From positions 106,316 to 170,315 of the forward strand of contig JBBABX010000001.1 in NCBI GenBank assembly GCA_041657405.1: DNA of 64,000 nucleotides. The letters run 5' to 3'. Under the pieces are notes generated by a model. The model was not told the origin of the DNA and ran no database searches. It was given only the letters and a program-made list of their open reading frames with translations. The translations under genes and the position numbers were made by a program. Origin of the DNA: Minisyncoccota bacterium (GTDB taxonomy: Bacteria; Patescibacteriota; Minisyncoccia; Phycocordibacterales; XYD1-FULL-46-19). Positions 5,051 to 62,694 of this stretch are shown here, in pieces (within the stretch, counting starts at the first letter, position 1; the number at the start of each line of letters is the position of its first letter).

Positions 5051-5116
5051 ACCGTCACAGAATACAAGAATTGCCAAATAATTGCAAGTGTTTAAATGAA
5101 AAGGTATGATTTACTT

Positions 5117-5692: not shown

Positions 5693-5703
5693 AACCAGGC
5701 AAG

Positions 5704-26180: not shown

Positions 26181-26183
26181 TTG

Positions 26184-27293: not shown

Positions 27294-27504
27294 ATTAAGT
27301 ATTTTATTTAAGTATTCTATTACTATTAATATTGTTGATATGTGGAAAATTAAATCTAATCTTATTTATCAACCTATTTATTAACATTTAATTATAATTA
27401 AATGTTAATAAATAGGTTGATAAATAATTAATATTTTTTATTTTAAAATTATCCATAAATTATCAATACAATTTCCACAAGTTTTTCCACAAATTTTAAA
27501 CAGT
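27294..27504. promoter_or_regulatory. dnaA-dnaN intergenic oriC-like region with DnaA-box-like 9-mers (TTATCCAtA, TTtTCCACA x2) and a large palindrome
   Basis: seen directly; classic origin context. Confidence 0.55.
27362..27427. repeat. 66-bp perfect AT-rich palindrome (ttatttatcaacctatttattaacatttaattat | ataattaaatgttaataaataggttgataaataa)
   Basis: verified by reverse-complementing the left arm by hand. Confidence 0.8.
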
Positions 27505-28875
27505 TTAAGAAGTGTAAAGTAGGGATCTAATTTGTTCAATTTCTTGATTCAAAAGTGAATTATTTTTCATATCATTTTTTATTTTTTCATAAGCATGAAT
27601 AACTGTTGTGTGATCCCTTCCTCCTAATTTTTGACCAATATAAGGGTAAGAAGTATTAAAATCTTCTCTTAAAATATACATTATTATTTGACGCGGTTTA
27701 ACAACCTCCTTTCTCCTTGTTTTTTCATAGAGGATCTTTTCTTCAATATTATAATAATTAGCAACAACACTTAAAACATCTTTAATAGAAAGGGTTTTTT
27801 TAGGTTTAATACTATATTTAATCATTTGTTTTATTTCTTGTAGAGTCAACTCTCTTCCTTTTGAATTAATCTGGCAGGAAATGGATTTTAAAGCGCCTTC
27901 TAACTCACGAATATTATCCTGAATAACAGAAGCTAAGTATTCTAATATTTCTTCAGCAATAGATATTGAATTACTTTTTGTTTTGTTTTTTAAAATTGCT
28001 AAACGAGATTCATAATCAGGTTTAGAAACATCAACAATCATTCCTCCTTCAAACCTAGAACGCAATCTTTCTTCTAGGTTAGGAATATATTTAGGTGATT
28101 TATCAGAAGAAAAAATAATCTGTTTATTATTTTCATAGAGATGATTAAATAAATGAAATAGTTCTTCTTGAAATTTTTCTTTATTAGAAAAAAATTGGAC
28201 ATCATCCATTATTAATAAATCATATTTTCGATATTTTTCTTTAAATTGATTAGCTTTATTACTTTGGATAGAATTAATATAATCAATTCCAAAATTTTCC
28301 GAAGTTACATAATAAACACTTTTTTCAGGAAAACTACTTTTAATATGGTTGCCGACTGCTTGAATTAAGTGAGTTTTTCCTAACCCTGTCCCACCGTAAA
28401 TAAATAAAGGATTATAAACTTGCCCAGGATTTTTTAAAATAGCTTGAGAGGCTGCGTAGGCGACATCATTAAAAGAACCTACTATAAAATCATTAAAAGT
28501 ATATTTAGGGTTTAAATTACTTTCTTTGTTTATATACAAATCTTTAAGACCCAAATCATCAACAGCTGAAATTGTTTTTTCTGTTTTTTTATCTTTAGAT
28601 TGTTTTAATTTATCCTCTAATTTTATTATTTGATATTCTATTGATCTAATATCGGGGTCGATATCCCTTAAGGATTTTAGAATAAATTTATGATATTTAT
28701 TAGATAACCAATCACGAACAAAAGTATTGGGGACATTTAAAAAAACAATACCATCTTCAACTTTGTTTATTTCAGTATGTTTGAACCATGTGCCAAAATT
28801 AGCTTTAGAAATACCCATTTCTATCTCATTAAGAGTGTTACCCCAAAGCTTTTTAGTATCTAATGTTTCATCCAT
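27505..28875 (-). CDS. dnaA: chromosomal replication initiator DnaA
   Basis: Walker A LFIYGGTGLGKTHL, Walker B LLIMDDVQF, sensor; C-terminal DNA-binding domain ...LGGRDHTTVIHAYEKI. Confidence 0.95.
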   Translation of the reverse strand: MDETLDTKKLWGNTLNEIEMGISKANFGTWFKHTEINKVEDGIVFLNVPNTFVRDWLSNKYHKFILKSLRDIDPDIRSIEYQIIKLEDKLKQSKDKKTEKTISAVDDLGLKDLYINKESNLNPKYTFNDFIVGSFNDVAYAASQAILKNPGQVYNPLFIYGGTGLGKTHLIQAVGNHIKSSFPEKSVYYVTSENFGIDYINSIQSNKANQFKEKYRKYDLLIMDDVQFFSNKEKFQEELFHLFNHLYENNKQIIFSSDKSPKYIPNLEERLRSRFEGGMIVDVSKPDYESRLAILKNKTKSNSISIAEEILEYLASVIQDNIRELEGALKSISCQINSKGRELTLQEIKQMIKYSIKPKKTLSIKDVLSVVANYYNIEEKILYEKTRRKEVVKPRQIIMYILREDFNTSYPYIGQKLGGRDHTTVIHAYEKIKNDMKNNSLLNQEIEQIRSLLYTS

Positions 28876-28893
28876 TAACTAGATTATATTCAT

Positions 28894-28902
28894 TGTGGAT
28901 AA
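28894..28902. promoter_or_regulatory. perfect consensus DnaA box (TGTGGATAA = rc TTATCCACA) upstream of dnaA
   Basis: seen directly; a second weaker box (agtggatta) lies about 45 nt away. Confidence 0.6.
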
Positions 28903-29051
28903 GTTAAGCAAACTTTACAACTATGTTTATAAGTAGTGGATTAGTTGTTAATTACTTTTTGTTTTTTTTAAAATTTAAAAACAACTTGTAAAATAAGAGT
29001 TTTTAAGAACCAAGTATTGATTATTTTTTTAAATAATATAGAATTAAAATT

Positions 29052-29186
29052 ATGTCGTTTACATACAAACCCAAAAAAAAGAAAAGAGCTAAAACACATG
29101 GTTTTTTGGCACGAAAAGCAACTACTGCTGGGAAAAAGGTTCTTAAAAGACGAATAGCTAAAAAAAGGTCTAAATTAACTGTTTAG
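29052..29186 (+). CDS. rpmH: 50S ribosomal protein L34
   Basis: MSFTYKPKKKKRAKTHGFLARKATTAGKKVLKRRIAKKRSKLTV; not in ORF track (44 aa); canonical position upstream of rnpA. Confidence 0.85.
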   Translation: MSFTYKPKKKKRAKTHGFLARKATTAGKKVLKRRIAKKRSKLTV

Positions 29187-29190
29187 TTTA

Positions 29191-29547
29191 ATGTTTCCCC
29201 AAAAGAGGAGGATAAATAAAACTCTTTTTCCAGATATTCTTAAAAAGAGTATTTTTTTTAAAGGGGTGGAGATATCTTTAAGGGTTTCTCCTCAAATAAA
29301 TAAAACTTTTCCATCTCTATTTAGTGTCGTTATTTCCTCTAAAGTGTCCCCTAAGGCGGTTGAGCGGAATTTTTTAAAAAGAAGAGTCCGATCTGCTCTA
29401 CAAAGTCAACTAGATAAGATTAAAGCAGGATATTATTTAATTTTTTATATAAATGATAAAAATTTAGCCAATTTGGATTTTTTAAAACTAAAAGAAAAAA
29501 TCTTAATTTTAATTAAAAAAGCAAAACTTCTTAATAAAAATGTTTAA
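29191..29547 (+). CDS. rnpA: ribonuclease P protein component
   Basis: 118-aa basic protein directly after rpmH; ...RNFLKRRVRSAL... RNR-like motif. Confidence 0.8.
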   Translation: MFPQKRRINKTLFPDILKKSIFFKGVEISLRVSPQINKTFPSLFSVVISSKVSPKAVERNFLKRRVRSALQSQLDKIKAGYYLIFYINDKNLANLDFLKLKEKILILIKKAKLLNKNV

Positions 29548-30283
29548 AACCCTTCTTTTTAACCCCCTTTATAACATCCTCATTATTATTATTAACCTTA
29601 TCCCTGGTGGTGATATTGGTTTGGCGATTATTATTTTAACAATTTTGATTAAACTTTTAATTTTACCGATTTACATTAAATCAATTAGAACTCAGGTGAA
29701 AATGAAGGAAATAGAGCCTAAACTTAAAGAAGTAAAACGAAAATATGAAAAAGACTTACCTGAACAATCAAAACAAATAATGGAGCTCTATAAGGAAAAC
29801 AAGGTTAACCCCTTTTCTAGTTTTTTAGTTTTACTTATCCAATTACCAATAATTCTAGCTTTATTCTATGTTTTTCGTGATAGTTTGGTTGTTCATCAAG
29901 ACATAATCTATTCTTTTGTTTCCATTCCAGAGAAAATTAATCCTCAATTTCTTGGTTTAATTGATATCTCAATGAATAAAAATGTGGTTTTGGCAATTTT
30001 AACTGGTTTAACTCAATTTATTCAAGTTCAGTTGACAATGCCTAAGCCAAAAAATAAAAAAATTAGTCCTCAATCAAAAGAACAACCAACTTTTGGGGGT
30101 GATTTTGCTCGTAGTATGGATATCCAAGTGCGCTATGTTATGCCATTTATTATTTCTTTTATTGCTTGGCAATTACCAGCCGCCATCTCTCTTTATTGGA
30201 TAACCAGTAATATCTTTCATTTAGTATCTGGTTTGAAAATAAAAAAAGAACAAAACAACCCCCTTTCTTTTAAGGAGGTTTAA
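29540..30283 (+). CDS. yidC: membrane protein insertase YidC (short monoderm form)
   Basis: 247 aa, 5 TM, follows rnpA; KLLILPIYIKSIRTQVKMKEIEP and conserved C-terminal TMs. Confidence 0.8.
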   Translation: MFKTLLFNPLYNILIIIINLIPGGDIGLAIIILTILIKLLILPIYIKSIRTQVKMKEIEPKLKEVKRKYEKDLPEQSKQIMELYKENKVNPFSSFLVLLIQLPIILALFYVFRDSLVVHQDIIYSFVSIPEKINPQFLGLIDISMNKNVVLAILTGLTQFIQVQLTMPKPKNKKISPQSKEQPTFGGDFARSMDIQVRYVMPFIISFIAWQLPAAISLYWITSNIFHLVSGLKIKKEQNNPLSFKEV

Positions 30284-30296: not shown

Positions 30297-31532
30297 CTAA
30301 TTATTTAAAGAGATAATTCTTATTTTTTTACTATTCCGGTCAATAGCAAAAATCTCATTTTGGTCTTTATTGTATTTTAGATTTATCAAATCACCCAGCA
30401 TCTGATTGTCGGTAATCAAATTAACATTACCATTAGAAGCGTTTATTACCCAAAGATTGTCATCAAACCGAACTTTACCTTGGTACCAATCATCAGGGTA
30501 GTTGGCTTTTGTGATATTCTTAGGCACAGCACAAAAAATCATATCCCCAACCTCATTCCAAACACATTTTTCAGGGAAAGTTGATAAGCTTAAGCGGAAA
30601 GATTTGTCTAGTTTGTAATCGTAAAGATAGGTTGAAATATTATCTAAGGTGTTACGAGAGTAGATTATTTTATTAGCATTCGGCCCAACTAAGGCGAGCA
30701 AACCCTCAATATTTCTTAGAATGGGTTCAAAAGAGCCATTATTGATATTTAAAAAGAAAAGATGGCCTGGAACATCAAAAGATGGTTTGGTTTGAAAAGT
30801 AATATAATTTGGATTGGGCCAACAAATTGACCATTCACTAAGGGGAGAGGAGAAAATTTTCTTTTGGTTGTTTAAATTAAAATCAGCAATATAACCATCT
30901 ATTCCCCCCTGTCTTCCATTTATAACAAAAACCTTGTCTTTTTGAGGGGAAACAGTAAAAGATAAAAGATTATCACTCAAAATATTTGTTTCCAGCTCCT
31001 TTATTTCACCAGTTTTGGTTAATTTGATTAAGCCTGAGGTGTTGTTGAATAAACCACTATTTGAACGGCGTAAAATTAAGCGTAGGCCGTTTTTATCCAA
31101 ACCCCAAACAACTTCCTCAACTCTAGGAAAAGTTGTATTTGTGAGACGATTTAAACCTTCTGATGGGGTATATTCAAAAATATTGCCACTAGGTTTGTCA
31201 AAAATAAAAATTTTAGTAGTGGTTCCTATTTTAAAAGCACTTAAACTCAGTGCGGATAGATTATCAATAGATAAGAATGAGAGATTGTTTTCCGTAGTTT
31301 CCCCTATTAATTTAATAGAATTATCAGAATTCTCACCCTGATTGTCTGGAATATCTGATTCCACATCTTCTTTTTCTAATGAACGGTTGTCAGAGATAGG
31401 AAAAACTGGACCAGGTGATTGTGTTTGAGTTTTTAAAGAGTCTCGGTTTTGAAAGAAAAAGACATAAAAAATAACATCCAAAGTGATAAAGATAATAATT
31501 ATTAAAATAATTAAAAGAGTTTTTTTTGTCAT
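30297..31532 (-). CDS. membrane-anchored extracytoplasmic protein, unknown function (last gene of the T4SS-like operon)
   Basis: N-terminal TM MTKKTLLIILIIIIFITLDVIFYVFFF then a 380-aa soluble domain. Confidence 0.45.
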   Translation of the reverse strand: MTKKTLLIILIIIIFITLDVIFYVFFFQNRDSLKTQTQSPGPVFPISDNRSLEKEDVESDIPDNQGENSDNSIKLIGETTENNLSFLSIDNLSALSLSAFKIGTTTKIFIFDKPSGNIFEYTPSEGLNRLTNTTFPRVEEVVWGLDKNGLRLILRRSNSGLFNNTSGLIKLTKTGEIKELETNILSDNLLSFTVSPQKDKVFVINGRQGGIDGYIADFNLNNQKKIFSSPLSEWSICWPNPNYITFQTKPSFDVPGHLFFLNINNGSFEPILRNIEGLLALVGPNANKIIYSRNTLDNISTYLYDYKLDKSFRLSLSTFPEKCVWNEVGDMIFCAVPKNITKANYPDDWYQGKVRFDDNLWVINASNGNVNLITDNQMLGDLINLKYNKDQNEIFAIDRNSKKIRIISLNN

Positions 31533-31534
31533 TT

Positions 31535-31957
31535 TTAAAGGTTTAGATTAAATTGGACTAAATCTGGATTAATTATATAAAGAATTAAATAAGAAAAGCC
31601 AGCGATTGCTAATCCCCAAAAAGCATCTTTTAGTCTTTTCTTTGCTTTTGATTTGCTTGAGATCACATCAGTCATCATATATTCGAAACCAGCCCAAACA
31701 ATCATAATAACGGCCGCTGAAAAAACTATTACAAAGAATGTTTGGTAAGCTCCCTTAAGATAAGTTGTTAGTTTTATAGGTTCTTTTGCTATTTCTCCGA
31801 TCCCTGTTAAAGCGCTGGGTTCTAGAAGAATATATCCAGTTTTATTTTCTTGCTGTGCGGAAGCTTTAAGAGCCAAAGTTAAGTAACTAAGAAAATATAA
31901 ATAAATCAAACTGTAAAAAAAATTTTTTAATTTAATTTGAATCATTATTAAAGTCAA
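31535..31957 (-). CDS. VirB2/TrbC-like pilin candidate
   Basis: long signal peptide ending ALKASA|QQ; ~105-aa mature part with two hydrophobic helices separated by a basic loop (SSKSKAKKRLKD), the VirB2 topology; sequence family unverified. Confidence 0.4.
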   Translation of the reverse strand: MTLIMIQIKLKNFFYSLIYLYFLSYLTLALKASAQQENKTGYILLEPSALTGIGEIAKEPIKLTTYLKGAYQTFFVIVFSAAVIMIVWAGFEYMMTDVISSKSKAKKRLKDAFWGLAIAGFSYLILYIINPDLVQFNLNL

Positions 31958-32963
31958 TTACCTGCTTATTGAAATTTATTAATAAAGAGCTGATTGCTTT
32001 TTGTGTAGAATTACTATTTGCAACAACTAGATTTATTTTGCTTAAACCCTCCGTCTCTGGTTTATAACGAAAAGTGACTAAAGAATTATCATTTGGTGGG
32101 GTAAATTTTTGATTATTTAATAACCAACTAAATGAAGGTTGTCCAATTTGGTTTAAACCAAAGAAATAAGGTTGAGCTTTGATTGTTATTTCTTGGTTGA
32201 TCAAAGTTAGGTTGTTACTCAAGGCATTATTATAGTCTATTCCCTCGAGCGGCTTTGATTCATAGAAAATAATTTTTGGTGCTTGGGGTTTTATTGATAA
32301 ACTATTTTCGGCTACTAAATTATTAGAAGAATCACTGACTAAAACATTTATTATTTTTTCTGTGAAATCTTTGTTGGCAGAAGTCAAAAAGGTGTTTCGT
32401 CCGATACCAGAAGAATTAGAAACTAAATTTCCATTAATATACCAACGGTAAGAAAGATTTTCTGATAAAGTTTTTTTGCCTGAAGAATTAATGATATTTG
32501 GAATAGCCCAAATTTTGATCAAGCTTTCTGGGGTTGGTAAGGCTTTGCCGCGGTAAAAATTAGGGACTTCCGTGCCGGCTTGCCAAACTAAATTAACTTC
32601 AGCTGGTTCAAAAATTAAAGTTTTTGACATCTGATACTGGTTATTTTTGATGATTATTTTCACTTGATTACTTGTACCAGCTTTTCCAACAAAAAAAGAA
32701 AACTGCTTTTTATTAGTATAAGAATCTTGTAGTTTATTATCTAAATACCAATTAATAAAATTACCCTGAAGATTAAAACCAAAACTTTTTAAAGTTATAA
32801 TAACTCGTTCGCCTGGAGAGGGATTTTCGGGGCGAACTTCGGCAATAAAATTACCCGATGATTCAATTTCTCGGACAGCAAAAACTAAAGTTGGAAAAGA
32901 TATCTGTAGTAAAATGAAAAAGATAAAAATTTTTTTCATACAAGTTTTATTTAATTGCGGCAA
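31932..32963 (-). CDS. secreted protein, unknown function
   Basis: signal peptide MKKIFIFFILLQISFPTLVFA; Asn/Ser-rich. Confidence 0.45.
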   Translation of the reverse strand: MPQLNKTCMKKIFIFFILLQISFPTLVFAVREIESSGNFIAEVRPENPSPGERVIITLKSFGFNLQGNFINWYLDNKLQDSYTNKKQFSFFVGKAGTSNQVKIIIKNNQYQMSKTLIFEPAEVNLVWQAGTEVPNFYRGKALPTPESLIKIWAIPNIINSSGKKTLSENLSYRWYINGNLVSNSSGIGRNTFLTSANKDFTEKIINVLVSDSSNNLVAENSLSIKPQAPKIIFYESKPLEGIDYNNALSNNLTLINQEITIKAQPYFFGLNQIGQPSFSWLLNNQKFTPPNDNSLVTFRYKPETEGLSKINLVVANSNSTQKAISSLLINFNKQVIDFNNDSN

Positions 32964-33372
32964 TTTTATTAAACTTTCCAGTTCCGCTGTTTTTAAAATC
33001 TCCTAAGGCGGTGGCTAAGGCTTGGGCAGCCAAGGGTGAAATGGAACCAGCAACATCTTCAGCATAAGTAATTGCCAATAATATTATAACACTAGAAGTC
33101 CAAGCGGGTAAGCTGTTAATAACGGGAAAAAACTCCAAAAGAAATGACCCTCCCATAGTCAAAGCTTTGTTGGGCTTTGCAAAACTTAGACCTTTTAATT
33201 TAAACCAAAACCAAAAAGTTAAAAAAGACCAAAAATTTATGAAAGGATTTACTAACCAACCAATCGTTCCCACAGAGATAAGATCAATGAGGGCTTGCAG
33301 GCCATCATAAATTAGGGCAACTATTACCATGAAGATCCCGATTATCGGATTTATTCTCAATTTTAACTTCAT
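32947..33372 (-). CDS. small polytopic membrane protein (T4SS-associated)
   Basis: 3-4 TM helices; immediately upstream partner of the VirB4-like ATPase operon segment. Confidence 0.4.
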   Translation of the reverse strand: MKLKLRINPIIGIFMVIVALIYDGLQALIDLISVGTIGWLVNPFINFWSFLTFWFWFKLKGLSFAKPNKALTMGGSFLLEFFPVINSLPAWTSSVIILLAITYAEDVAGSISPLAAQALATALGDFKNSGTGKFNKIAAIK

Positions 33373-33373
33373 T

Positions 33374-35197
33374 TTAAGATAATTTTTGTTGTTGGGTAGC
33401 CGCCAACTCTGCTTTGGCCTTTTTAATTGCTAAAATTTGTGACGGATCGGAAGTGATTATTTGATCTTCGGTATAAGAAGCGATAACCTCAATGGCTACT
33501 CTTTTAAGACCAGCAATAAAAATTCCACGACCAATAGAAGCCTCTAAAAGAAAATACTTTTCTTCCTCGGTTAAATTAAAGGTTTTTTGCACAGCTTCTA
33601 TTGAGGCTGGCGATTGTTTTAATAAGATTTGAATTGAAGAGTTTTGAATAATTGGCGCGCCATATTGTGATTTCATAAAATCTTCCACATCTTGAGTAAT
33701 TGTGGCTACTCCTAGATAATATTTACGTCCTCTTTTTGCTAAAGAATATAAAAAAGAAGCTGTATCTTCTGATTTCATCATCCACCAAGCCTCATCCACA
33801 ACCAAAAGTCTTTTTCGTAAATTGCGACGAATAGAACTCCAAATATGTTGCATTACAATATACATTGCGACTGGCTTGAGCTCATCTTCCATATCTCGGA
33901 TGGAGAAAACCACGAATTTTTTATTGATATCAACATTTGTAGGTCTGTTCAAAAAACCAGCCCAAGTGCCTTGAGTATATTTTAAAAGACGTTGGGCTAG
34001 AGATTCCCCTCCTTCCATTCCTGCCAAAACCAGTTCTAGGTCAGAAAGCAAGGGGGCGGAAACTTTAGTAAAATCTGAATCGGGGGTGATATCTTTAAGG
34101 GCGTAAGTTTCAGAGATGGCATTATCTAGAATAGAATCTTCTTCGGGGCTTAAGCCTCCAAGCATTAAACGAAAAAGACCAACTAAGTTGATAATATTTG
34201 AGCGTAAGATATCAGCTGGGGACTCATCTTCTCTGGGGAAAGGTAGGTCAAAAGGATTAATATGGTGTTCGGAGGTAAGGGAGATGTTAAAATAGCGTCC
34301 CCCAACTGCTTCAGCCAAAAATTCATATTCGCGTTCGGGGTCAAGGACAATGATTTCAGTATCAAACATTAAGCTGCGCAAGATTTCTAATTTAGTAGAA
34401 TAAGATTTTCCAGAACCAGATTTGGCAAAAATGACGGAATTATAGTTTTCCAAAGAAAAACGATCAAATATAACCAAAGATGAGTTGTGTAAATTTCGTC
34501 CAAAAAGAATTCCTTTATTAGAAGTTAAATCAAAAGAAATAAAAGGAAAGAGGCTGGAAAGCGGGGTTGAATTCATTTTATAATTTACATTTAATTGGTC
34601 GGTAGCAAAAGGGATAACACTCTTAAAACCGCTTTCTTGCAAATAGGTGGCAGTTTTAAGATAGATCAATTTTGAATCCAAAATTGATCTAATCTCATTT
34701 TCTATCTTATCCAACTCGTCTTCCTCGTCGCCATAAATAGTTATATAGAGACCAACAGCAAAAATTTTCTCAGTTGCTTGCTGAAGTTGGTCGCGAAGAT
34801 TTTCGATATCGGCTTGCGCGGTGTCAAGTTGGGGGTCGCGAACCATTCCCTTCATTGCTCTTTCTTGGATTTGGCTTTCTACTTCGGCAATTTTCTTTTG
34901 CAAAGCACGCAGAGTGGAGGTAGTATCAAGGGGATGAATAAAAATAGAAACATCAAAGATGGTGTCTAAATTAATAACTGGTGAAAACCATTCTTCCGGT
35001 AAAAAACGAGGATAAGAAATAACATATAAAGTGCGAATAACCTTTCCTCCCAGGCTGATACTTTTAGGGGTGATGCGCAAAGCTGATGGGGCGATAATAT
35101 CTTTTAACTCTAAAACACCCATTTCATAAATATCTTGCGGCATAATAGGCGTGATAATTTCTTTCTTTTTTTCTTTTTTAAAAGGTAGAGATAACAT
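33374..35197 (-). CDS. VirB4/TraC-like type IV secretion ATPase, C-terminal ATPase portion
   Basis: Walker A AKSGSGKSYS followed by VLDPEREY; DEAW Walker B (LLVVDEAWWMM); ORF begins with ATG immediately after the stop of 35198..35839. Confidence 0.75.
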   Translation of the reverse strand: MLSLPFKKEKKKEIITPIMPQDIYEMGVLELKDIIAPSALRITPKSISLGGKVIRTLYVISYPRFLPEEWFSPVINLDTIFDVSIFIHPLDTTSTLRALQKKIAEVESQIQERAMKGMVRDPQLDTAQADIENLRDQLQQATEKIFAVGLYITIYGDEEDELDKIENEIRSILDSKLIYLKTATYLQESGFKSVIPFATDQLNVNYKMNSTPLSSLFPFISFDLTSNKGILFGRNLHNSSLVIFDRFSLENYNSVIFAKSGSGKSYSTKLEILRSLMFDTEIIVLDPEREYEFLAEAVGGRYFNISLTSEHHINPFDLPFPREDESPADILRSNIINLVGLFRLMLGGLSPEEDSILDNAISETYALKDITPDSDFTKVSAPLLSDLELVLAGMEGGESLAQRLLKYTQGTWAGFLNRPTNVDINKKFVVFSIRDMEDELKPVAMYIVMQHIWSSIRRNLRKRLLVVDEAWWMMKSEDTASFLYSLAKRGRKYYLGVATITQDVEDFMKSQYGAPIIQNSSIQILLKQSPASIEAVQKTFNLTEEEKYFLLEASIGRGIFIAGLKRVAIEVIASYTEDQIITSDPSQILAIKKAKAELAATQQQKLS

Positions 35198-35839
35198 TTA
35201 AGTAGTTAAATTAGGAGTTTGATTTTCTCCCGGGTTATACATTTTAAAATAAAGTTCAATCATTTCTTCGGTTCCTAAAATATCTGCGCGCAAACCAACT
35301 CGTGACAGTCCTCCCTTAACAACATTGATTCGTTGATTTAATTGTTCTACGTTTTCATCAAAATCGTTGTTTAAGGTAGTTTTTTGGGGTTTTTTGTTAA
35401 CCATGCTAGTTATTTTTGAAATAATTCCTTCCCCACCCTTTTTAATAATCGGCGGAGTATAAGGTATTACAATAAAAAAACTTTTAGTCATAACATTATT
35501 TCTTTCGGTAAAAACTCTTATAAATTCCATATATTCCTTAATTTGGATTTTCAGCAACTCGTTTGTTTGTTCGATCATCCGTTGCTCAAGAATGGAAATA
35601 TAAGGTTGAATGTCCAAACGTCTTGATTGAATATATATTTGAACGAGAAAATCAAGCGAATTTAGAAAGTTTTGATAACCAAAAAGGATTGCTTTTTTTT
35701 CGTCTTCTGATTTTAGACCAAAATTTAAAGATGAAACCATTAAAACAGAACGCATGGAATTATCTTTAAGAATCAGAACGCCGTTGCGAATCTCTTTAAT
35801 AGGCACAAAATCTTGAGTTGTTTTTCTTCTTTCGGGCAT
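35198..35839 (-). CDS. VirB4 N-terminal (CagE_TrbE_VirB-like) domain encoded as a separate ORF
   Basis: pattern ...DFVPIKEIRNGVLILKDNSMRSVLMVSSLNFGLKSEDEKKAILFGYQNFLNSL... resembles VirB4 N-terminal domains; its TAA stop abuts the ATG of the ATPase ORF. Confidence 0.5.
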   Translation of the reverse strand: MPERRKTTQDFVPIKEIRNGVLILKDNSMRSVLMVSSLNFGLKSEDEKKAILFGYQNFLNSLDFLVQIYIQSRRLDIQPYISILEQRMIEQTNELLKIQIKEYMEFIRVFTERNNVMTKSFFIVIPYTPPIIKKGGEGIISKITSMVNKKPQKTTLNNDFDENVEQLNQRINVVKGGLSRVGLRADILGTEEMIELYFKMYNPGENQTPNLTT

Positions 35840-35844
35840 TTTAT

Positions 35845-36282
35845 TTATTGTTCATCATTATTCAACCTTTTAACATCCAAACTCCAAGCAAGTTCATTCA
35901 GTTTACTTTCCGATAAACGTGGTAATTTTAGGTTTGCAGCTTGGTCAGAGTTAACAATATTCGGAGTGTTTTTGGGGATTTTTGAAGTATTTTTTTCGTC
36001 TTTTTTCCAAATATAAAGTTTGCTGCCCAAGGAATATTTGACAAAAGCTTCTAAAACTACAATAAATGGTTGGCCGTTATATTTTATAAATGCTAGAGCT
36101 AGGGCTAAGGCGGCTACTCCAGCAATAGGAATTATTTTTAGGATAAAAGGTAGGGGTAGCCAGACATAAAGAATAAAACAAATTCCTCCTCCACCAACTA
36201 AGTACAAAAATTGTTTAAAGGTAAGTGGTCCAAAAATTTTATCCTCCATCTCAATAAATTGTGGTATTTGAAATTGTTGCAT
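35845..36282 (-). CDS. VirB3-like small membrane protein candidate
   Basis: two TM helices, ~145 aa, positioned just upstream of VirB4 as in many T4SS loci. Confidence 0.4.
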   Translation of the reverse strand: MQQFQIPQFIEMEDKIFGPLTFKQFLYLVGGGGICFILYVWLPLPFILKIIPIAGVAALALALAFIKYNGQPFIVVLEAFVKYSLGSKLYIWKKDEKNTSKIPKNTPNIVNSDQAANLKLPRLSESKLNELAWSLDVKRLNNDEQ

Positions 36283-36360
36283 AGATTTCCCTTATAATTA
36301 TAACTTAGTTCAACTTTAAATAAAACAACTCGCTTTATTCAGCGAGTTGTTAATAAAAAT

Positions 36361-36897
36361 TTAAGTTATTGGCTCACGATAGGGATCATGCCTCGGAGGC
36401 GTTTCTGTTGTTTTTTCTGGGGTGGTGGCGGTTGATTTGTCAGTCACTTCTACTTTTTCTCGTGGTAATCCATAATTAGAAGTTGTTTTTTGAGAAAAAG
36501 TATCTGCAGTCGAAATCTCCTCTTTTTTTTCTGGTTGACTTGTCTCAAGAGATTCAGGCTTGGCAGATGTGTTTTTAGGTTGGACAGTCGCTTCTTTCAT
36601 TGCAGTTCTTATTTTATTCAAAATTTCCTGATTTAATTCATAAGTAACGAGATTGATCACATCAGTAGAAAGCCCAGTCTCTTTAGTTAGGGTATTATTA
36701 AAATCATTTGGTTTAATAATACCCACAATAAATAAACGAACTACAATGGCCATTTTCCCAATCTGATCAATATTTAAATGGTGTTTTTTTCCAATTTTAA
36801 TTAGAAGGGAGGCGGTTTCTTCGGAATCAAGAATTTCCACTACATTTTCTGGTAAATTACTTTTTGCTTGTTTGATTTGTTCCTTGTTTAAATTCAT
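36361..36897 (-). CDS. hypothetical protein with Thr/Pro/Glu-rich C-terminus
   Basis: ORF within the T4SS-like operon. Confidence 0.4.
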   Translation of the reverse strand: MNLNKEQIKQAKSNLPENVVEILDSEETASLLIKIGKKHHLNIDQIGKMAIVVRLFIVGIIKPNDFNNTLTKETGLSTDVINLVTYELNQEILNKIRTAMKEATVQPKNTSAKPESLETSQPEKKEEISTADTFSQKTTSNYGLPREKVEVTDKSTATTPEKTTETPPRHDPYREPIT

Positions 36898-36915
36898 AGA
36901 TATTAAATCAATTTA

Positions 36916-39291
36916 TTACCAATCGGTTGACCCTCTCCCAGCTCTCATGTATTCATAACCAGGAGAAGTTGAGTCACCTATTATATTTGTCTTAATTGTT
37001 GCCAGCAATGTATCAAGCTTATCCTCATTTATTATGGCGTTCAAGCTGCTTGGCCCTAAGTTAACACTAACCTCAACTCTTTCCAGAACATCATCGGGAA
37101 GTTTGGCGATTTCATTGGGAAGAATTTTTTTATCTCTAATTATCGTAGCAACATCTGCTTTTGTGGGAGCTTTTTTCAGGTCTTCGGCTATACTCTTGAG
37201 TTCTTCTTTTCTGTTTTCCTCTTTTTCCTCTTTTTCTTCTTTTGTTTTTGTTTTTTTGTCTTCCTTTAATTTTTTCCGAGCGTCTTTGTCGGTGCCCAAG
37301 ATATTAAAACCAGAAACTAGGCCAGCTTTTGATATTGTTGATGAAACATAATCATTAATACTCATAAGAGGCCTTGGGACAGATGGTTGACCTTTGAAAT
37401 CAAGGGTATCAGCTACCCACTTTTTGCCTTCTTTTATTTTTTCTTTTCCGGTTTCATAGGTTTTTGTTACTCCTCCAGGAACGGCAGTTGCTCGCTCTAT
37501 TCTTCGGGTGCTTGTTTTTAAAGCCTTGGTTAAAACATTAGGTCTTTCGCTTAATTTTGTTCCTGCCCACTGATCAATCTTGACAGAGCCTTTTCTGATC
37601 GCTTTGCCTCCGAGATTTAATCCTGCTGAACCATATCTTACCATAGAGGCCTGAGACTTGCCGGCCCATTTCTTAGAAAAGTCAAGCCCCTTAGCGCCGA
37701 ATTTTTGAGCAATAAAAATACAAGAAGCAATCATTGCCATCACAATCAGTTGTATCATTGTAATCTTCATTAAACCGGTTCCAATTCCAGCGTCTTGGGC
37801 TAAGGTGGATAAGCCCTTATCTCCTAGAATTTTAAAAACAGCAAAAAGCGGAATAAGAAAGGCGGGAGCAAAGAAAGATTGTTTTAGTAAAGCGTCTTGC
37901 CATTTTGTGTAAGAATCTTTAAACATTGGAATGAGTCTAAGTGTGAGACCGATTGGTGAGAAAACATAAACAAATAAAAGTGTAACAGTTCGAATAAGAA
38001 ACATAATAGACCCGGCAAGTAAGACAAAAGAGGCCATTAAGATAATAATAATGCTACCCAAAGAGCCTATGACAATTTGAAAAAATCCAAGTCTTGTTGT
38101 TGTGACCTCGTCTCCTTCATAATCATCAATTTCATCAATTGGCACAACGTGGGCGCTTAGATCCAGCTTGCTTACTAAAGCTGTTCCAATATTTGCGTTC
38201 ACTCGGTCTAGAATCCAAGCTTCGTTGGCTTGGGGGTCGTAACTCATTCGAGAATAAAACTCATAAGCTATAACATTACTAGCATCAATTACTACTCTTA
38301 CTAGAAAACCACTAAAATTTACTAGTAAAGCAATTATAATAACCTCTACAATTAATTTTTTACTATTACCACCAATAGAGATATCAAAAATAACACTTAT
38401 GGCAATATAGAGCAGAATAAAAATGAAAGATAGATTGGCTAAATCACGCATCACTTTCCACGCAGCATCAATTCCTGTAGATGCTATAAGGCTTTTAAAG
38501 CTTACAATGGAAATATAAATAGAAAGGTCAAAGATAGAACTAGAAATCCACAAAATAGTGCCAAATATTTTTAAGATGAGAGTAGAAATACCAGCGGCAA
38601 TAGATAGAACACAAGCCATCGGATTAATTCCAAACCAGTAAAGACATTGGTTTTTATTTTCTTCAATTTCCTTAATAATTTCTTCATTGGCTTCATTTGC
38701 AATTTCTTGTCTTCCTGCAATATGTTCAAAATATTCTTCGTCTGTTCCTTCCCAATACTCTGGTATTGCAATATCTCTCTCTTCCGGATTGGTTCTGATT
38801 AATTCCTGAAATCTATTCATAGCATATCTGTTTTCTTCTGTTGTTCCGATTCCAGGTTTTTGAAAACTAATACCGTTGTCTATTGCTTCTTGGCGTGCCA
38901 GCAGATAGTCTTTTGTGGTCCTATCCCCTCTTTCTAGAAGGAGATCAATGGTTGATCTTTGTTCAGGGGTCCATGGGACTTGTTCTATTTCCTCTTTAAT
39001 TTCATTTAGTTTTCTGTCGTAATAATAAAACTTCTCATCAAGTTCATTGTTTGTTGTGTTGCCAATACCACCAGTTACCCGAGTCCAAAAACTGTCGTCA
39101 CTATCTATTCCTGAAGGCAACTTTTCCATATTGTTTACAAGCGTACCTAATTGAGCAGTGAGTTTTTCCTGTTCAGTCCTAGTATCTGGTATTGGACCTT
39201 GGGCTGAAATCTTAGAAGGAAGACTATAAAAAACGACAATTCCTAAAAGAATAAAAAGTAGAATCTTGTTTATCTTCAATATAGACTTCAT
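36916..39291 (-). CDS. VirB6/TrbL-like polytopic membrane protein with N-terminal extracytoplasmic domain and C-terminal Lys/Glu-rich tail
   Basis: signal/TM then ~200-aa soluble domain, then 8 or more hydrophobic helices; C-terminal KKLKEDKKTKTKEEKEEKEENRKEELK. Confidence 0.45.
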   Translation of the reverse strand: MKSILKINKILLFILLGIVVFYSLPSKISAQGPIPDTRTEQEKLTAQLGTLVNNMEKLPSGIDSDDSFWTRVTGGIGNTTNNELDEKFYYYDRKLNEIKEEIEQVPWTPEQRSTIDLLLERGDRTTKDYLLARQEAIDNGISFQKPGIGTTEENRYAMNRFQELIRTNPEERDIAIPEYWEGTDEEYFEHIAGRQEIANEANEEIIKEIEENKNQCLYWFGINPMACVLSIAAGISTLILKIFGTILWISSSIFDLSIYISIVSFKSLIASTGIDAAWKVMRDLANLSFIFILLYIAISVIFDISIGGNSKKLIVEVIIIALLVNFSGFLVRVVIDASNVIAYEFYSRMSYDPQANEAWILDRVNANIGTALVSKLDLSAHVVPIDEIDDYEGDEVTTTRLGFFQIVIGSLGSIIIILMASFVLLAGSIMFLIRTVTLLFVYVFSPIGLTLRLIPMFKDSYTKWQDALLKQSFFAPAFLIPLFAVFKILGDKGLSTLAQDAGIGTGLMKITMIQLIVMAMIASCIFIAQKFGAKGLDFSKKWAGKSQASMVRYGSAGLNLGGKAIRKGSVKIDQWAGTKLSERPNVLTKALKTSTRRIERATAVPGGVTKTYETGKEKIKEGKKWVADTLDFKGQPSVPRPLMSINDYVSSTISKAGLVSGFNILGTDKDARKKLKEDKKTKTKEEKEEKEENRKEELKSIAEDLKKAPTKADVATIIRDKKILPNEIAKLPDDVLERVEVSVNLGPSSLNAIINEDKLDTLLATIKTNIIGDSTSPGYEYMRAGRGSTDW

Positions 39292-42200
39292 TTATCTTTC
39301 TATATCAATTATTTTTATAACCTCAGAATTATCATTGAAACACAATACCTTGTAGATAAGCTCAGAGCGTCTAATTGTTAAAGTAGAATTGCTTTCATTA
39401 AGGCTGACATCTAACCAAGTTATTCCTCGTTCGGTCAATTCATTATTTAATTTTATCACAATATCATCTAACGACGTAGCAGAAAAATTAATCACATTAC
39501 CGTCTATGTTTATTTTAATTTGACCAGTAACAGATATATTTGAAAAATCAAAGGTTAATTTTTCAGTAAGATAATCTGTTGTAATTGTTGTGGTAGGGGT
39601 AATTTCCTTTGGTTCTCCATCGCCTTCATTAATTGTAACAGAACCTTTCATTGGAATAGGTAAAGAAATTATCTTTTCCCCCAATTTCCCAAGATATTCC
39701 ATTTTTTTCATTGCTATTATTATTTCTCCATTTTTTCCTCTACCCAACCAATTATTATCAACTTCGCAAGTGGAATTCGGTGTAAACCAAACTAATTTAA
39801 TTTGATTAGGTTTTTGACCGGAACTGATTTCTGCTATGCTTGGCGATAAAGCTTTTGTTTGGACTAATGGCGGTTGTCCCTGAAATGAGTTTTGAGCTTG
39901 GGTTAGTAGAATGTTTAAAATATTTAGCATTAACTCACTATTATTTTCGTCAGACTCACTATTGTTCCAAAGACTAGATAATTGAGAAAGTAAATTACTC
40001 CAGTTTAAACTATTTTCACCAGTTCCAGTTGTCCCTCCAGTTCCAGTCTCTCCAAAACCACCCGTTGAAAGAGTGCCAGTATTGTTTTGCTGGGTTTGTT
40101 GGACAGTTTGTTGAGTTTTGCTGGGGTCAATAACAGGGATTTTTTGTCCATCAGCACCAGGGCCTGGTTTGGTATTTTGCCCAGAACCAGCAGCAGCAAT
40201 GGTTGGGGTTTCATAGTTGCCAGTTGCTGATTCGTGGGCGTCAGGAGCACTATCTGTTGGTTGCGACTCAGGTCCCCCAGGTACAAGATAGGTGTTATAT
40301 TTAGCTAATAAAGCACTAGACAAAGTGTCTTTGACAATTATCCCCGGCGCGCCTTCTCCGGCAACGGTCTCCCATTTTCGGCAAGCTACCAAATTTCCGT
40401 CTTGGTCTTTAATTTCATCAACACATTTACGTCCAGAGGGCAAGATTCCTTGTCCGGCTAAGTATTCATCTCGGGCATTAGCTTCAGCGATATTTTGTGC
40501 TCGGTTTTTAGCTTCTATGGCTAGCATGCTTGAGCCATAAGGATTATTTTCCGGATCGGTTATTTTAAACCACATATTCCAAAAATCAGTAGCTGACGAG
40601 GAATCAGTATTTACTGACTGATTTTCAGCTGAAGCGGTTTTCCAAAAAGCTAGCCGACTTAAGGGTTTACTGATAAAGTTTGGCAAATAAGCCAACAAAC
40701 GTTTGCTAAAACTAGGAGAATAGGCGGTTTGAATGGCATTTTTGTTTCCAGCCTCTTTAAATTTTTTAATGTCTTCTTTACTGATTGTTGAATCAATTTG
40801 GCTTAAACTTTCATCATTTATTAATTCAGCCAATCCTTCTTTATAAAGATTTTTTGAATTATTGATATCTGCCAAAACAACTTGTTTCGCTTCCTCATCA
40901 ATTTCATTCAAGTGTTCCCCTAAATTTTTAGGAAAAGCTTGAGTGTTGACATATTGTCCGTCAACAATTTTAGTGTAACCAGTTTTAATTAAGCTGTCTG
41001 GGTTGTCTTTACCAGCGATATCATTAGCATATTTTGCCAAGGCTTCCAGTCTGGTGCGATTGGCATTAGCCTCGTCTGCAATTTTCATTGATTCAATACT
41101 GGTCTGGATGCGTCTGATAGCACGTAGATGGGTACAAATTTGGATACTCAAATCTCGGATTTCTTGAGTGGTTTTGTCAATACTTGCGGTTTGTTTGTCG
41201 GTATTTTGTGTCGCAGTCATTAATTGTCCTTGTTGTTCTACAACTGGAACATATAAACCACCACCAACTAGACCGGTTACTGACCCAAGAATTCCTCCTC
41301 CTCCGCCCAAGAATTGTCCAACAATGGGAATATTAGAAACTTGATCTAAAATTCCACCTGGTATTTTATCCAAGGCGGCGCTGACAATATCGCCTGGTGC
41401 ACCGGATAAGGCGGCTTGTAGAATAGAGTTGTCACCGCCTAAAAGGAAATTACCCAAAGCGTTATCGGTTAAATTAGGCAAGATGCCGCCAAAACCATCG
41501 CCAAGTGTTGACAAGGTGTGATTGATGGCATTAGATCCCAACCCTTCAAAAATATTATTTAAATTGCCTGTAGAAATACCATTTACTAGATTAGACAAAG
41601 CATCACCGCCAATATTACCAAAAATATTATTGATAGCACCATCGCCTAATATTGGTAAAATATTATCCATCATATTAGTTCCCAATGAATTAATCAGGTC
41701 TCCCGCAGCAGCACCGCCAAGTTCGGAAAATACTATGCCCCAGTTTTCGTTGGAGATACTGCTTAAAATATTTTCAAAGTTACCAGCTCCAAGATTGCCA
41801 AATACGGAATCTAGTCCAAGTCCGCTCATGCTAGGGATCACATCATTTAAAAAATTGGGACCAAGACTTTCAATTAATTTGCCTGCGGTAGAAATACCGA
41901 CACTCTCAAATATGTTTTCTAAACTATCCTTACCCAAACTATTCATTACTCCTTGTATTAAATCTCCTGAACCACTAGCGATTATATTATTTACACTACC
42001 ACTGCCTAGATTATTGAAGACTTGTTCTAAGATGCTGTCATTTCCACGTCTTAATAAATTATCTATTCCAGCTTGGTCTAATTGTCCGATTAAGGTGTTT
42101 ACAGTTTCGTCTTCTAAATTACCCAAGAATGAATCGAAGCCGGTAACGGACATATTGGAGAAAATATTATTAATTGAAGGTTCCACCAAAAGATCGGCGA

Positions 42201-43419: not shown

Positions 43420-44116
43420 TTTTATCTTTTTTAAAAGTGATAACAATCTTATATTCTGGACCAATAACACCTGTTTTTTGTAAGAAATCGTTTAATTTGG
43501 TTGTCAAATTAATTATTGTTCCCGTTTCATTAAGATAAGTTTGTCCGCTTTGTAGGGCTAATACGGGTTCATCTAGGGCTTTTTCCATTTGTCCAGCTAA
43601 AAAGGAAAGTTTTTGTAAAGAAACAACCAAATCTTTTTGGAAGACCGCTGTTTCGGCGGGTGCTGGTAATTTTATTAATCTGTTAATGATTGAATCAAAA
43701 GTTAGACGGGCAGAAACTATATCTTTGATCAAAATTGGGTCATTATTATCCATTGCTTCTAACATTATTCGAACCTCGTGTTTGCGATTACCAGAAAGAG
43801 GCTTAAGAATATCAATTAAATTTTGGACATATGTTTGCAAATCATCTTCTGTAACTGTCGCCAACACGTCTAATTCAATTTCTTCTTCAAATAAACTAGT
43901 GACATTAAAATTTTGTAAAGCCCCCTTTTTTTCTAGATTATCTTCTACAATATTTCGCAAATTGCGATTTTTTTCTATAATCTCGGCCAAAATTTCTGCT
44001 TCATATTTTTCGCGTTGAGCACGATTTTTAAAACCAACATACCACAAAACCCCCAAAGTTATAATCAGGAGTATAACTATTAAAAATATTATTTTGCGAC
44101 TTGGTAATCGATTCAA
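43409..44116 (-). CDS. bitopic membrane protein (VirB8-like architecture, unverified)
   Basis: N-terminal TM KIIFLIVILLIITLGVLWYVGF + ~200-aa soluble domain; first gene of the minus-strand operon. Confidence 0.4.
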   Translation of the reverse strand: MNRLPSRKIIFLIVILLIITLGVLWYVGFKNRAQREKYEAEILAEIIEKNRNLRNIVEDNLEKKGALQNFNVTSLFEEEIELDVLATVTEDDLQTYVQNLIDILKPLSGNRKHEVRIMLEAMDNNDPILIKDIVSARLTFDSIINRLIKLPAPAETAVFQKDLVVSLQKLSFLAGQMEKALDEPVLALQSGQTYLNETGTIINLTTKLNDFLQKTGVIGPEYKIVITFKKDKNEI

Positions 44117-62464: not shown

Positions 62465-62694
62465 ATGTTGTGCCTAACGATTTGTAATGTCTGGTGGACA
62501 AACAAAAATCCGGCCACCAGGAAGGCTCCGAAGAACCTCTACAGAAGTTTCCCTCTGCAACGTTAGGCACGCCCTGAATGACCGGGTTTTTGTGCCTAAC
62601 GATTTCGACCATACCTTACAGAAAATCCATAAGGGTTAGGTCATTCAATATTCAGTTGTAACTACATGGTATTACTTTCGGAGTAAGAAGTAAA

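What the first reader, a model, noticed from the sequence alone, without database searches (positions are those of the whole stretch)
35190..35205. VirB4 encoded as two abutting ORFs (TAA|ATG junction)
The VirB4 N-terminal domain (213 aa) ends with TAA at 35198-35200. The ATPase portion (607 aa, Walker A + DEAW) starts with ATG at 35195-35197, in the same orientation, with no spacer. This is either a genuine two-polypeptide VirB4 (translationally coupled), a recent nonsense mutation (pseudogenisation of the secretion system), or a sequencing error. Which one it is determines whether the system is functional.
Basis: seen in the sequence. Interest (0 to 1): 0.5.

Follow-up and report, generated by a model that had tools for sequence, protein, structure and literature searches.

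The report
Normal two-gene VirB4 (TrsD + ATPase)
The secretion-system ATPase VirB4 really is encoded as two touching genes here, but this is the ordinary, conserved and already published layout in this group of ultra-small bacteria (Patescibacteria), not a mutation or a sequencing error.

Summary
Observation confirmed. On the minus strand a 213-aa ORF (35839..35198) ends in TAA. The next codon is the ATG of a 607-aa VirB4 ATPase ORF (35197..33374). Both are in the same frame with no spacer.

It is neither a fresh nonsense mutation nor an assembly error:
- The junction DNA is identical in three other assemblies.
- 78 of 80 species-level relatives (Paceibacteria) have the same separate ~213-aa gene just upstream of the ATPase gene. 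All three relative frames occur, and spacers run from -4 to 497 nt (median 6).
- All 120 best homologues of the small ORF are 207-242 aa stand-alone proteins.
- The one apparent close fusion is a gene-calling artefact (in-frame TGA read as Trp). One genuine fusion exists in a distant MAG.

The small protein belongs to the TrsD/TraD family. Its predicted fold matches only the R388 VirB4 (TrwK) chains. The ATPase ORF starts at the same point as TrsE of staphylococcal plasmid pSK41, which has the same trsD-trsE split.

The TrsD-VirB4 pairing in Patescibacteria, next to dnaA, is already described (Quinonero-Coronel et al. 2025, PMC12102498). The system is most likely functional. Interest is low.

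The parts
35198..35839 (-). TrsD/TraD-like protein (213 aa), the detached N-terminal module of VirB4 (Pfam PF26593 'TraC-like')
   Evidence: NCBIfam: VirB4_plasma positions 101-233 (E 7e-11), CD1110 VirB4 positions 2-118 (E 1.3e-6), TrsD/TraD NF041427 positions 11-144/201 (E 2.4e-6). AF2 model has pLDDT 85. Its only significant PDB fold matches are 14 TrwK/VirB4 chains (prob 1.00, TMq 0.47-0.59). 5340 homologues were found, and the best 120 are all 207-242 aa.
35195..35200 (-). TAA|ATG junction: stop of the TrsD-like ORF (35200..35198) directly followed, in frame, by the start of the ATPase ORF (35197..35195)
   Evidence: Identical in L081, L082 and L083.
33374..35197 (-). VirB4-family ATPase (607 aa), lacking the first ~190 residues of full-length VirB4. 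Walker A at 34403-34426, Walker B/DEAW at 33782-33802.
   Evidence: NCBIfam CD1110 VirB4 372.8 bits against a cut-off of 325, positions 185-734/752. Pfam P-loop_TraG, AAA_10, DUF87. PDB 4AG5 E 7.6e-43 and TrwK E 1e-9. BLASTP to pSK41 TrsE E 6e-38, aligned from residue 4 to TrsE residue 3.
35845..36282 (-). PrgI family protein (VirB3-like membrane partner of VirB4), 5 nt upstream of the TrsD-like ORF
   Evidence: Pfam PF12666 E 1.9e-11. Same order PrgI - TrsD-like - VirB4 in L081-L085.
36916..39291 (-). 791-aa membrane protein, possible VirB6/PrgH-type channel component (weak evidence)
   Evidence: NCBIfam CD3337/EF1877 mobilome membrane protein, E 1.1e-4, below cut-off.
31535..31957 (-). T4SS pilin (VirB2-like), 140 aa
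   Evidence: Pfam PF18895 E 1.2e-6, 28.9 bits against a cut-off of 26.6.
30297..43470 (-). Tightly packed minus-strand T4SS operon of ten ORFs, including unannotated ones at 39292-43470, 36361-36897, 32947-33372, 31932-32963 and 30297-31532
   Evidence: ORF list and junctions. No family hits for the unannotated members apart from an MgtE_N match (7.6e-11, no single stretch passing on its own) in the 1392-aa ORF.
49339..51708 (+). VirD4/T4CP-like ATPase, encoded apart from the operon
   Evidence: Pfam TrwB_AAD_bind, T4SS-DNA_transf and TraG-D_C, all near threshold.
26184..30283 (.). Chromosomal origin context: dnaN (26184-27293 -), dnaA (27505-28875 -), yidC (29540-30283 +). The T4SS operon starts 14 nt beyond yidC.
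   Evidence: Pfam. The 26-30 kb stretch is AT-rich, GC 0.23-0.27.

Best explanation
This is the standard two-gene form of VirB4 in the chromosomal type IV secretion system of a Paceibacteria-class patescibacterium.

The upstream gene encodes a TrsD/TraD-family protein, which is the first ~200 residues of what other bacteria make as part of a single ~800-aa VirB4. The downstream gene encodes the rest: the second part of the N-terminal domain plus the RecA-like ATPase domain.

The split is old. It was inherited together with the system from the pGO1/pSK41-type branch of monoderm (MPF-FATA) conjugation machines, and both halves are kept under selection.

The following steps are inferred, not shown. 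The two polypeptides reassemble non-covalently into a VirB4-like unit. The TrsD-like piece supplies the membrane-proximal part that, in R388, contacts VirB3 and mediates N-terminal-domain contacts. Here the VirB3-like protein is PrgI, encoded immediately upstream.

The TAA|ATG junction is simply the tightest version of the short intergenic spacing typical of this operon. Ribosomes finishing the first ORF can restart at the adjacent ATG. This would give roughly matched amounts of the two halves in a genome that shows no Shine-Dalgarno motifs. The system is therefore expected to be functional.
For: Shown:
1. The two ORFs are collinear and complementary on full-length VirB4 profiles, and on TraC_F_IV. 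The small ORF's residues 156-208 match profile 130-177 only weakly (E 0.016). The ATPase ORF's residues 98-198 match profile 278-374.
2. The predicted fold of the small ORF matches only TrwK/VirB4 chains in the PDB.
3. 78/80 GTDB species loci carry a separate, intact small ORF directly upstream of the ATPase gene. In 76 loci with a complete ORF its length is 209-225 aa (median 213), at 47-57% identity. Relative frames 0/1/2 are 20/34/25, chi-square p = 0.15. Spacers run -4 to 497 nt with median 6, and 45/79 are 10 nt or less. Stop codons are TAA 62, TAG 14, TGA 3.
4. The 120 best homologues of the small ORF are all 207-242 aa.
5. With a concatenated query, 119/120 best hits are 581-628-aa ATPase-only proteins.
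6. 149/150 best representatives at 50% clustering are 157-443 aa.
7. The only close 'fusion' (P0122) has an in-frame TGA in its DNA.
8. A genuine fusion (P0269, 797 aa) in the same PrgI...yidC-rnpA-dnaA context links the halves functionally. The split point falls in a length-variable linker after the conserved YNPGE motif.
9. pSK41 has trsD 14 nt upstream of the DUF87 ATPase gene (TraE/TrsE in the pSK41/pGO1 literature). The window ATPase aligns with it from its third or fourth residue, including the K-rich N-terminus. The small-ORF profile aligns to TrsD over 171 columns (E 2e-4).
10. The junction is identical in three further assemblies.

Literature: TrsD homologues (2,272) are the most abundant T4SS component in Patescibacteria, and 1,664 are encoded near virB4. 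The locus is often near dnaA/dnaN/ksgA. The TrsD homologue of Southlakia epibionticum ML1 is listed as essential (PMC12102498; Tn-seq in PMC10633639).

No SD-like motif precedes any of 22 genes inspected.
Against: - No direct evidence was obtained here that the two polypeptides bind each other. The attempt to model a joined protein failed (pLDDT 52).
- Coupling is not conserved. Ten loci have spacers over 100 nt, five have an unrelated gene inserted between the halves, and L077 has the small gene on the opposite strand.
- According to PMC12102498, TrsD homologues in Gracilibacteria are not adjacent to virB4. [quoted passage not shown]
- The hhalign probability against the single TrsD sequence is only 46.5%.
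Confidence: 0.9

Rival explanations
1. A recent nonsense mutation has cut a once-continuous virB4 in this strain, so the secretion system is decaying.
For: The two ORFs are in the same frame and separated by a single TAA, which is what a point nonsense mutation would look like.
Against: The split is present in 78/80 related species in all three frames, with spacers up to 497 nt. The small ORFs are intact at 209-225 aa. The ATPase ORF begins with its own ATG at the position where the ATPase ORFs of relatives start (their candidate ATGs lie next to the aligned N-terminus) and where pSK41's ATPase starts. An in-frame arrangement is no more common than chance (20/79, p = 0.15). The whole operon is intact and tightly packed.
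Confidence: 0.01
2. A sequencing or assembly error introduced the stop codon.
For: None specific. The source is evidently a metagenome-assembled genome.
Against: The same 111-nt junction is found in Logan (SRR18595299), ENA (ERZ27247346) and JGI (3300028603) assemblies. The JGI contig differs from the window by 1 SNP in 1763 nt. The architecture is universal among relatives.
Confidence: 0.01
3. Programmed stop-codon read-through or recoding: some ribosomes read through the in-frame TAA and make a fused 821-aa VirB4 in addition to the two separate products.
For: The frames coincide and there is no spacer. A genuinely fused protein exists in one distant MAG, so a fused product can evidently fold.
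Against: There is no conservation of frame: only 20/79 loci are in frame. TAA is the commonest stop at this junction in relatives (62/79). In this window it also ends the adjacent 1392-aa ORF and the ATPase ORF. No recoding signal was noticed. TAA reassignment is not known in bacteria (own knowledge).
Confidence: 0.02
4. The TrsD-like protein is an independent T4SS accessory factor that merely shares ancestry with the VirB4 N-terminus, and does not function as part of a reconstituted VirB4.
For: [quoted passage not shown] Some homologues carry C-terminal extensions, reaching lengths of 443 aa. Adjacency can be broken (L077, and the loci with inserted ORFs).
Against: The accompanying ATPases lack exactly the segment that TrsD supplies. 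Gene order and adjacency are conserved in 78/80 loci. A fusion exists in the same context. The fold matches the N-terminal part of TrwK.
Confidence: 0.06

Closest known systems
TrsD-VirB4 pairs of the patescibacterial chromosomal T4SS (Quinonero-Coronel et al. 2025, Microb Genom, PMC12102498; essential T4SS of Southlakia epibionticum ML1, Wang et al. 2023, PMC10633639)
   Same: The gene set matches: PrgI/VirB3, TrsD, VirB4, VirB2-like pilin and a VirB6-like protein. The chromosomal position matches, next to dnaA/dnaN/yidC/ksgA. No relaxase was seen among the genes annotated here. The T4CP-like gene lies away from virB4. The window's own proteins are annotated as Candidatus Paceibacterota MAG proteins.
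   Different: Nothing material. The zero-nt, in-frame junction is one end of the spacer distribution. The paper calls TrsD a remote homologue of the VirB4 N-terminus without a function. It does not use the words 'split' or 'N-terminal domain'.
TrsD/TraD + TrsE/TraE of staphylococcal conjugative plasmids pGO1/pSK41 (NCBIfam NF041427; MPF-FATA subclass pGO1)
   Same: A ~200-227-aa TrsD is encoded directly upstream of a ~600-670-aa VirB4-type ATPase, preceded by a small membrane protein and a VirB2/CagC-like gene. The ATPase N-termini align residue for residue. The TrsD profile matches.
   Different: pSK41 is a conjugative plasmid with relaxase and coupling protein. The spacer is 14 nt rather than 0. 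Sequence identity is low: 25% for the ATPase and about 20% for TrsD.
Single-chain VirB4 / TraC / TrwK (R388, Ti plasmid, F) and CD1110-type VirB4 of Firmicutes ICEs
   Same: The domain content is the same when the two ORFs are added together. The ATPase ORF passes the CD1110 family cut-off (372.8 against 325 bits). The predicted fold of the small ORF matches TrwK.
   Different: Here the content is encoded as two polypeptides. Each single ORF covers only part of the profile.

Membership tests
VirB4-family T4SS ATPase (NCBIfam CD1110 type / TIGR00929) | The whole-protein score reaches the curated family cut-off | tested here: met
   ATPase ORF: NF045971 372.8 bits against a cut-off of 325, covering profile 185-734/752. 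It is below cut-off for TIGR00929 (130 against 643) and for VirB4_plasma (288 against 590).
VirB4-family T4SS ATPase (NCBIfam CD1110 type / TIGR00929) | Walker A and Walker B (DEAW) nucleotide-binding motifs are intact | tested here: met
   AKSGSGKS at residues 258-265 and VVDEAWW at 466-472. G261, G263, K264, S265, D468, E469, A470 and W471 are invariant in 17 homologues.
VirB4-family T4SS ATPase (NCBIfam CD1110 type / TIGR00929) | Single polypeptide containing both the N-terminal and the C-terminal domain | tested here: not met
   Profile positions 2-118 are on a separate ORF. This is the conserved state in the clade.
VirB4-family T4SS ATPase (NCBIfam CD1110 type / TIGR00929) | Encoded in a cluster with other T4SS parts (VirB3-like, VirB6-like, pilin) | tested here: met
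   PrgI at 35845-36282 and T4SS_pilin at 31535-31957. A weak CD3337/EF1877-like membrane protein at 36916-39291.
TrsD/TraD family (NCBIfam NF041427; Pfam PF26593 TraC-like) | Sequence match to the family model | tested here: inconclusive
   NF041427 E 2.4e-6 but only 27.5 bits against a cut-off of 200. hhalign to pSK41 TrsD E 2e-4, prob 46.5%. PF26593 is recorded for this exact protein and all 120 homologues in the precomputed tables, but it did not come up in the local Pfam scan, even at E up to 1.
TrsD/TraD family (NCBIfam NF041427; Pfam PF26593 TraC-like) | A ~200-aa stand-alone protein encoded immediately upstream of a VirB4-type ATPase that lacks the corresponding N-terminus | tested here: met
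   213 aa with a 0-nt spacer. Same arrangement in pSK41 and in 78/80 related loci.
TrsD/TraD family (NCBIfam NF041427; Pfam PF26593 TraC-like) | Fold of the VirB4 N-terminal region | tested here: met
   AF2 model pLDDT 85. The top 14 PDB matches are all TrwK/VirB4 chains (E 3e-4 to 1.4e-2, prob 1.00, TMq 0.47-0.59). The next match has prob 0.30.
TrsD/TraD family (NCBIfam NF041427; Pfam PF26593 TraC-like) | Physical association with the ATPase subunit and/or VirB3-like protein | not testable with these tools
   Only single-chain prediction is available, and the joined-sequence model failed.
Patescibacterial chromosomal T4SS (PMC12102498) | Chromosomal location near dnaA/dnaN/ksgA, no relaxase in the cluster, T4CP encoded apart | tested here: met
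   dnaN, dnaA, yidC, ksgA and uvrD flank the operon. The T4CP-like gene is at 49339-51708 on the other strand. No relaxase family was hit among the 19 neighbouring ORFs scanned.

The most novel reading that the evidence does not exclude
The detached TrsD-like module may be more than a passive piece of VirB4. As a separate polypeptide it could be made in a different amount from the ATPase. It could also act as an exchangeable adaptor between PrgI/VirB3 and the ATPase hexamer, giving patescibacterial (and pGO1-type) T4SSs an assembly or regulatory step that single-chain VirB4 systems lack. In this genome the in-frame, zero-spacer TAA could additionally allow a trace of fused product.
Probability: 0.1. 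Interest if true: 0.4.

Novelty: already known. Interest (0 to 1): 0.1.

Why it matters
For annotating this genome, the practical point is that the T4SS should be called intact. The 213-aa ORF should be named a TrsD/TraD-family (VirB4 N-terminal module) protein, not flagged as a pseudogene fragment.

More generally, in-frame split junctions like this one can be wrongly merged by gene callers that use alternative codes. P0122 is an example.

The biology is already in the literature: an essential, chromosomally fixed, conjugation-derived T4SS in Patescibacteria with a two-piece VirB4. What remains open is what the separate N-terminal module does. That question applies to the whole family, not to this locus.

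Tried and rejected
1. Modelling a joined N+C protein to see whether the halves pack as in TrwK. I used P0122 as the first sequence, with a mixed alignment of N-only, C-only and fused rows (A3). The model was unusable (mean pLDDT 51.8, pTM 0.31). P0122 also turned out to be an artefactual fusion.

2. Sequence search of the small-ORF profile against PDB sequences found nothing at E up to 1. Only the fold comparison found TrwK.

3. The local Pfam scan of the small ORF gave no family at E up to 0.01. At E up to 1 it gave only a sub-threshold TraC_F_IV match. The PF26593 assignment comes from the precomputed tables.

4. A Shine-Dalgarno motif inside the end of the small ORF was considered as evidence for or against coupling. 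It was rejected as uninformative because none of 22 genes inspected has such a motif.

5. Alternative genetic code was considered. It was rejected because TAA also ends neighbouring ORFs here. At this junction relatives use TAA, TAG and TGA as stops.

6. dN/dS was not computed. The nearest DNA relatives retrieved are either identical or at about 50-64% amino-acid identity, where synonymous sites are saturated. Conservation of ORF length and of residues was used instead.
Full report
**1. The observation**

The feature lies on the minus strand. The reverse complement of 35100-35300 reads ...CCT AAT TTA ACT ACT TAA ATG TTA TCT CTA CCT....

The ORF table lists 35198..35839(-) at 213 aa and 33374..35197(-) at 607 aa, both starting with ATG. 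Translating 33374-35839 in one frame gives a single internal stop. So the two ORFs abut with no spacer and share a frame.

The ATPase ORF carries Walker A (AKSGSGKS, residues 258-265, window 34403-34426) and Walker B/DEAW (residues 466-472, window 33782-33802).

**2. What the two ORFs are**

The 607-aa ORF passes the NCBIfam cut-off for the CD1110-type VirB4 conjugal-transfer ATPase (372.8 bits against 325). The match covers only profile positions 185-734 of 752. The 213-aa ORF matches positions 2-118 of the same profile.

The same complementarity holds for the VirB4_plasma model (101-233 against 292-893 of 894). The small ORF also hits the TrsD/TraD family NF041427, at E 2.4e-6 and below cut-off. 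Pfam finds P-loop_TraG, AAA_10, DUF87 and the end of TraC_F_IV in the large ORF.

Against PDB sequences, ATPase-ORF residues 226-582 equal the crystallised VirB4 C-terminal domain (4AG5, E 7.6e-43). Residues 253-547 equal TrwK 446-733. About 225 residues of the classical N-terminal domain therefore remain on the ATPase polypeptide. The small ORF is only the first module of that domain.

An AlphaFold2 model of the small ORF, built from 74 sequences, has mean pLDDT 85. Its only significant PDB fold matches are 14 chains of TrwK/VirB4 from the R388 T4SS (probability 1.00, TMq 0.47-0.59). The next hit has probability 0.30.

**3. Fused or split in relatives**

Several independent searches agree.

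- **Homologues of the small ORF.** There are 5340 in the 5.8-billion-protein collection. The best 120 (54-100% identity) are all 207-242 aa.
- **Concatenated N+C query.** It returns 119 ATPase-only proteins of 581-628 aa among the best 120, plus one apparent fusion, P0122 of 846 aa.
- **The apparent fusion.** The DNA of P0122 (L084 2060-4600) contains an in-frame TGA that was read as Trp...AAA ATG AAT TGA TTC... It is a gene-calling artefact and in fact another in-frame split.
- **Representatives at 50% clustering.** 149 of the best 150 matches to the small ORF are 157-443 aa, and one is 797 aa (P0269). P0269 translates correctly from its NCBI contig. It sits in the same PrgI ... yidC-rnpA-dnaA-dnaN context, so it is a genuine but rare fusion.
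- **Position of the split.** An alignment of N+C with these long proteins places the split in a length-variable linker. It falls between the conserved YNPGE motif and the conserved PQDIY...IAPSA segment.

**4. Junction geometry in 80 species-level genomes**

A scan of the GTDB species-representative genomes returned 588 confirmed relatives, and the best 80 loci were kept. They are Paceibacteria lineages such as Vogel-, Campbell-, Taylor-, Zambryski-, Nomura- and Kaiserbacteria, with ATPase identity of 70-82%.

- In 78 loci a separate small ORF lies directly upstream on the same strand.
- One locus is cut by a contig end.
- One locus (L077) has the small gene, together with a PrgI-like gene, on the opposite strand.
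- In 76 loci with complete small ORFs, lengths are 209-225 aa (median 213) at 47-57% identity.
- Including the window, the relative frames 0/1/2 are 20/34/25, not different from equal (chi-square p = 0.15).
- Spacers range from -4 to 497 nt with median 6. 45 of 79 are 10 nt or less, and 10 are over 100 nt.
- Stop codons are TAA 62, TAG 14 and TGA 3.
- In five loci a PF05635 '23S rRNA-intervening sequence protein' gene is inserted between the halves.

A recent nonsense mutation cannot produce this pattern. The split is ancient, and the two genes are independently maintained. The window's 0-nt, in-frame junction is simply one end of the distribution.

**5. Assembly error**

The exact 213-aa protein is found on contigs from three other assemblies: Logan SRR18595299, ENA ERZ27247346 and JGI 3300028603. 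All three call the next gene at the very next base.

The 111-nt junction sequence is identical in all three. The JGI contig differs from the window by one SNP in 1763 nt, so it is not merely the same assembly copied.

**6. Precedent and origin**

In the staphylococcal conjugative plasmid pSK41, trsD (227 aa) lies 14 nt upstream of a 672-aa gene annotated 'DUF87 domain-containing protein'. This is the VirB4-type ATPase known as TraE/TrsE in the pSK41/pGO1 literature (own knowledge). The pair is preceded by a CagC/VirB2-like gene and a small hypothetical gene.

The window ATPase aligns with that ATPase from residue 4 to residue 3, including a shared K-rich N-terminus (E 6e-38). The small-ORF profile aligns with TrsD over 171 columns (E 2e-4, probability 46.5%). 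The split point therefore looks homologous. This suggests the two-gene form came with the system from the pGO1-type branch of monoderm T4SSs.

**7. Context and function**

The operon (30297-43470, minus strand) is tightly packed. It contains PrgI/VirB3-like, T4SS pilin and a possible VirB6-like membrane protein.

It abuts yidC, dnaA and dnaN, next to an AT-rich stretch. ksgA, uvrD, a lysozyme and a T4CP-like gene lie on the other side. No relaxase was hit.

No gene inspected has a Shine-Dalgarno-like motif. Another TAA|ATG zero-spacer junction occurs at 39292/39291. The junction is thus in keeping with the operon's compact style.

Termination-reinitiation coupling is a reasonable inference for this genome. 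The comparative data show it is not obligatory.

**8. Comparison with the literature**

Quinonero-Coronel et al. 2025 (PMC12102498) already report the following:
[quoted passage not shown] There are 2,272 homologues, of which 1,664 are associated with virB4.
- The T4SS is MPF-FATA-like, usually lacks a relaxase, and often lies near dnaA/dnaN/ksgA.
- The TrsD homologue of Southlakia epibionticum ML1 is essential.

The Tn-seq work is Wang et al. 2023 (PMC10633639). A 2025 review repeats these points (PMC12857230). The window is a textbook example of that description.

**9. Verdict**

The architecture is normal and already known, so interest is low.

What is not shown, here or in the cited papers, is the physical reassembly of the two polypeptides and the role of the detached module. 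My attempt to model a joined protein failed.

Noticed in passing
L008 3568-3969; L010 2999-3382; L012 3589-3960; L026 3544-3942; L060 1560-1934: In 5 of 80 related genomes a 123-133-aa ORF is inserted exactly between the trsD-like gene and virB4. The three scanned against Pfam (L008, L010, L012) match PF05635, the '23S rRNA-intervening sequence protein' (four-helix bundle, bAvd-like), at E 1.8e-19 to 2.2e-38. The L026 and L060 ORFs look the same by eye. The recurrence at this junction suggests a mobile or repeatedly acquired small gene.
   Followed up: partly
L084 2060-4600 (protein P0122): The only close 'fused' VirB4 in the protein collection is an artefact. Its DNA has an in-frame TGA that the gene caller read as Trp, presumably because an alternative genetic code was used. 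In-frame split junctions in this family can therefore be mis-merged in public protein sets.
   Followed up: yes
L085 544-2937 (protein P0269, GCA_964615945.1): A genuinely continuous 797-aa TrsD+VirB4 fusion occurs in a more distant patescibacterial MAG, with the same PrgI ... yidC-rnpA-dnaA-dnaN synteny. Its linker is about 25 residues shorter. It may be a secondary re-fusion.
   Followed up: partly
L077 2837-3902 (minus strand) against 3962-5818 (plus strand): In one genome the trsD-like gene, followed by a PrgI-like gene, is inverted and transcribed divergently from virB4. Co-translation with the ATPase gene is therefore not required.
   Followed up: partly
window 39289-39294: A second zero-spacer TAA|ATG junction occurs in the same operon, between the 1392-aa ORF (39292-43470, GTG start, MgtE_N match at 7.6e-11 with no single stretch passing on its own) and the 791-aa membrane protein (36916-39291).
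   Followed up: no
window, 22 gene starts between 5704 and 57294: None of the inspected genes has a Shine-Dalgarno-like purine motif within 30 nt upstream. The leaders are simply A/T-rich, which suggests SD-independent initiation in this organism.
   Followed up: partly
window 62522-62642 (-): Full-length match to the Rfam LOOT RNA motif (RF03000): 67.2 bits against a gathering score of 46.4.
   Followed up: no
window 26000-30000: The lowest-GC stretch of the window (0.23-0.27) surrounds dnaN-dnaA-yidC and is probably the chromosomal replication origin. The T4SS operon begins 14 nt beyond yidC.
   Followed up: no
proteins P0260-P0390: About a quarter of the 50%-cluster representatives of the TrsD-like family are 260-443 aa. 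They carry extensions, mostly C-terminal, of unknown nature beyond the ~210-aa core.
   Followed up: no
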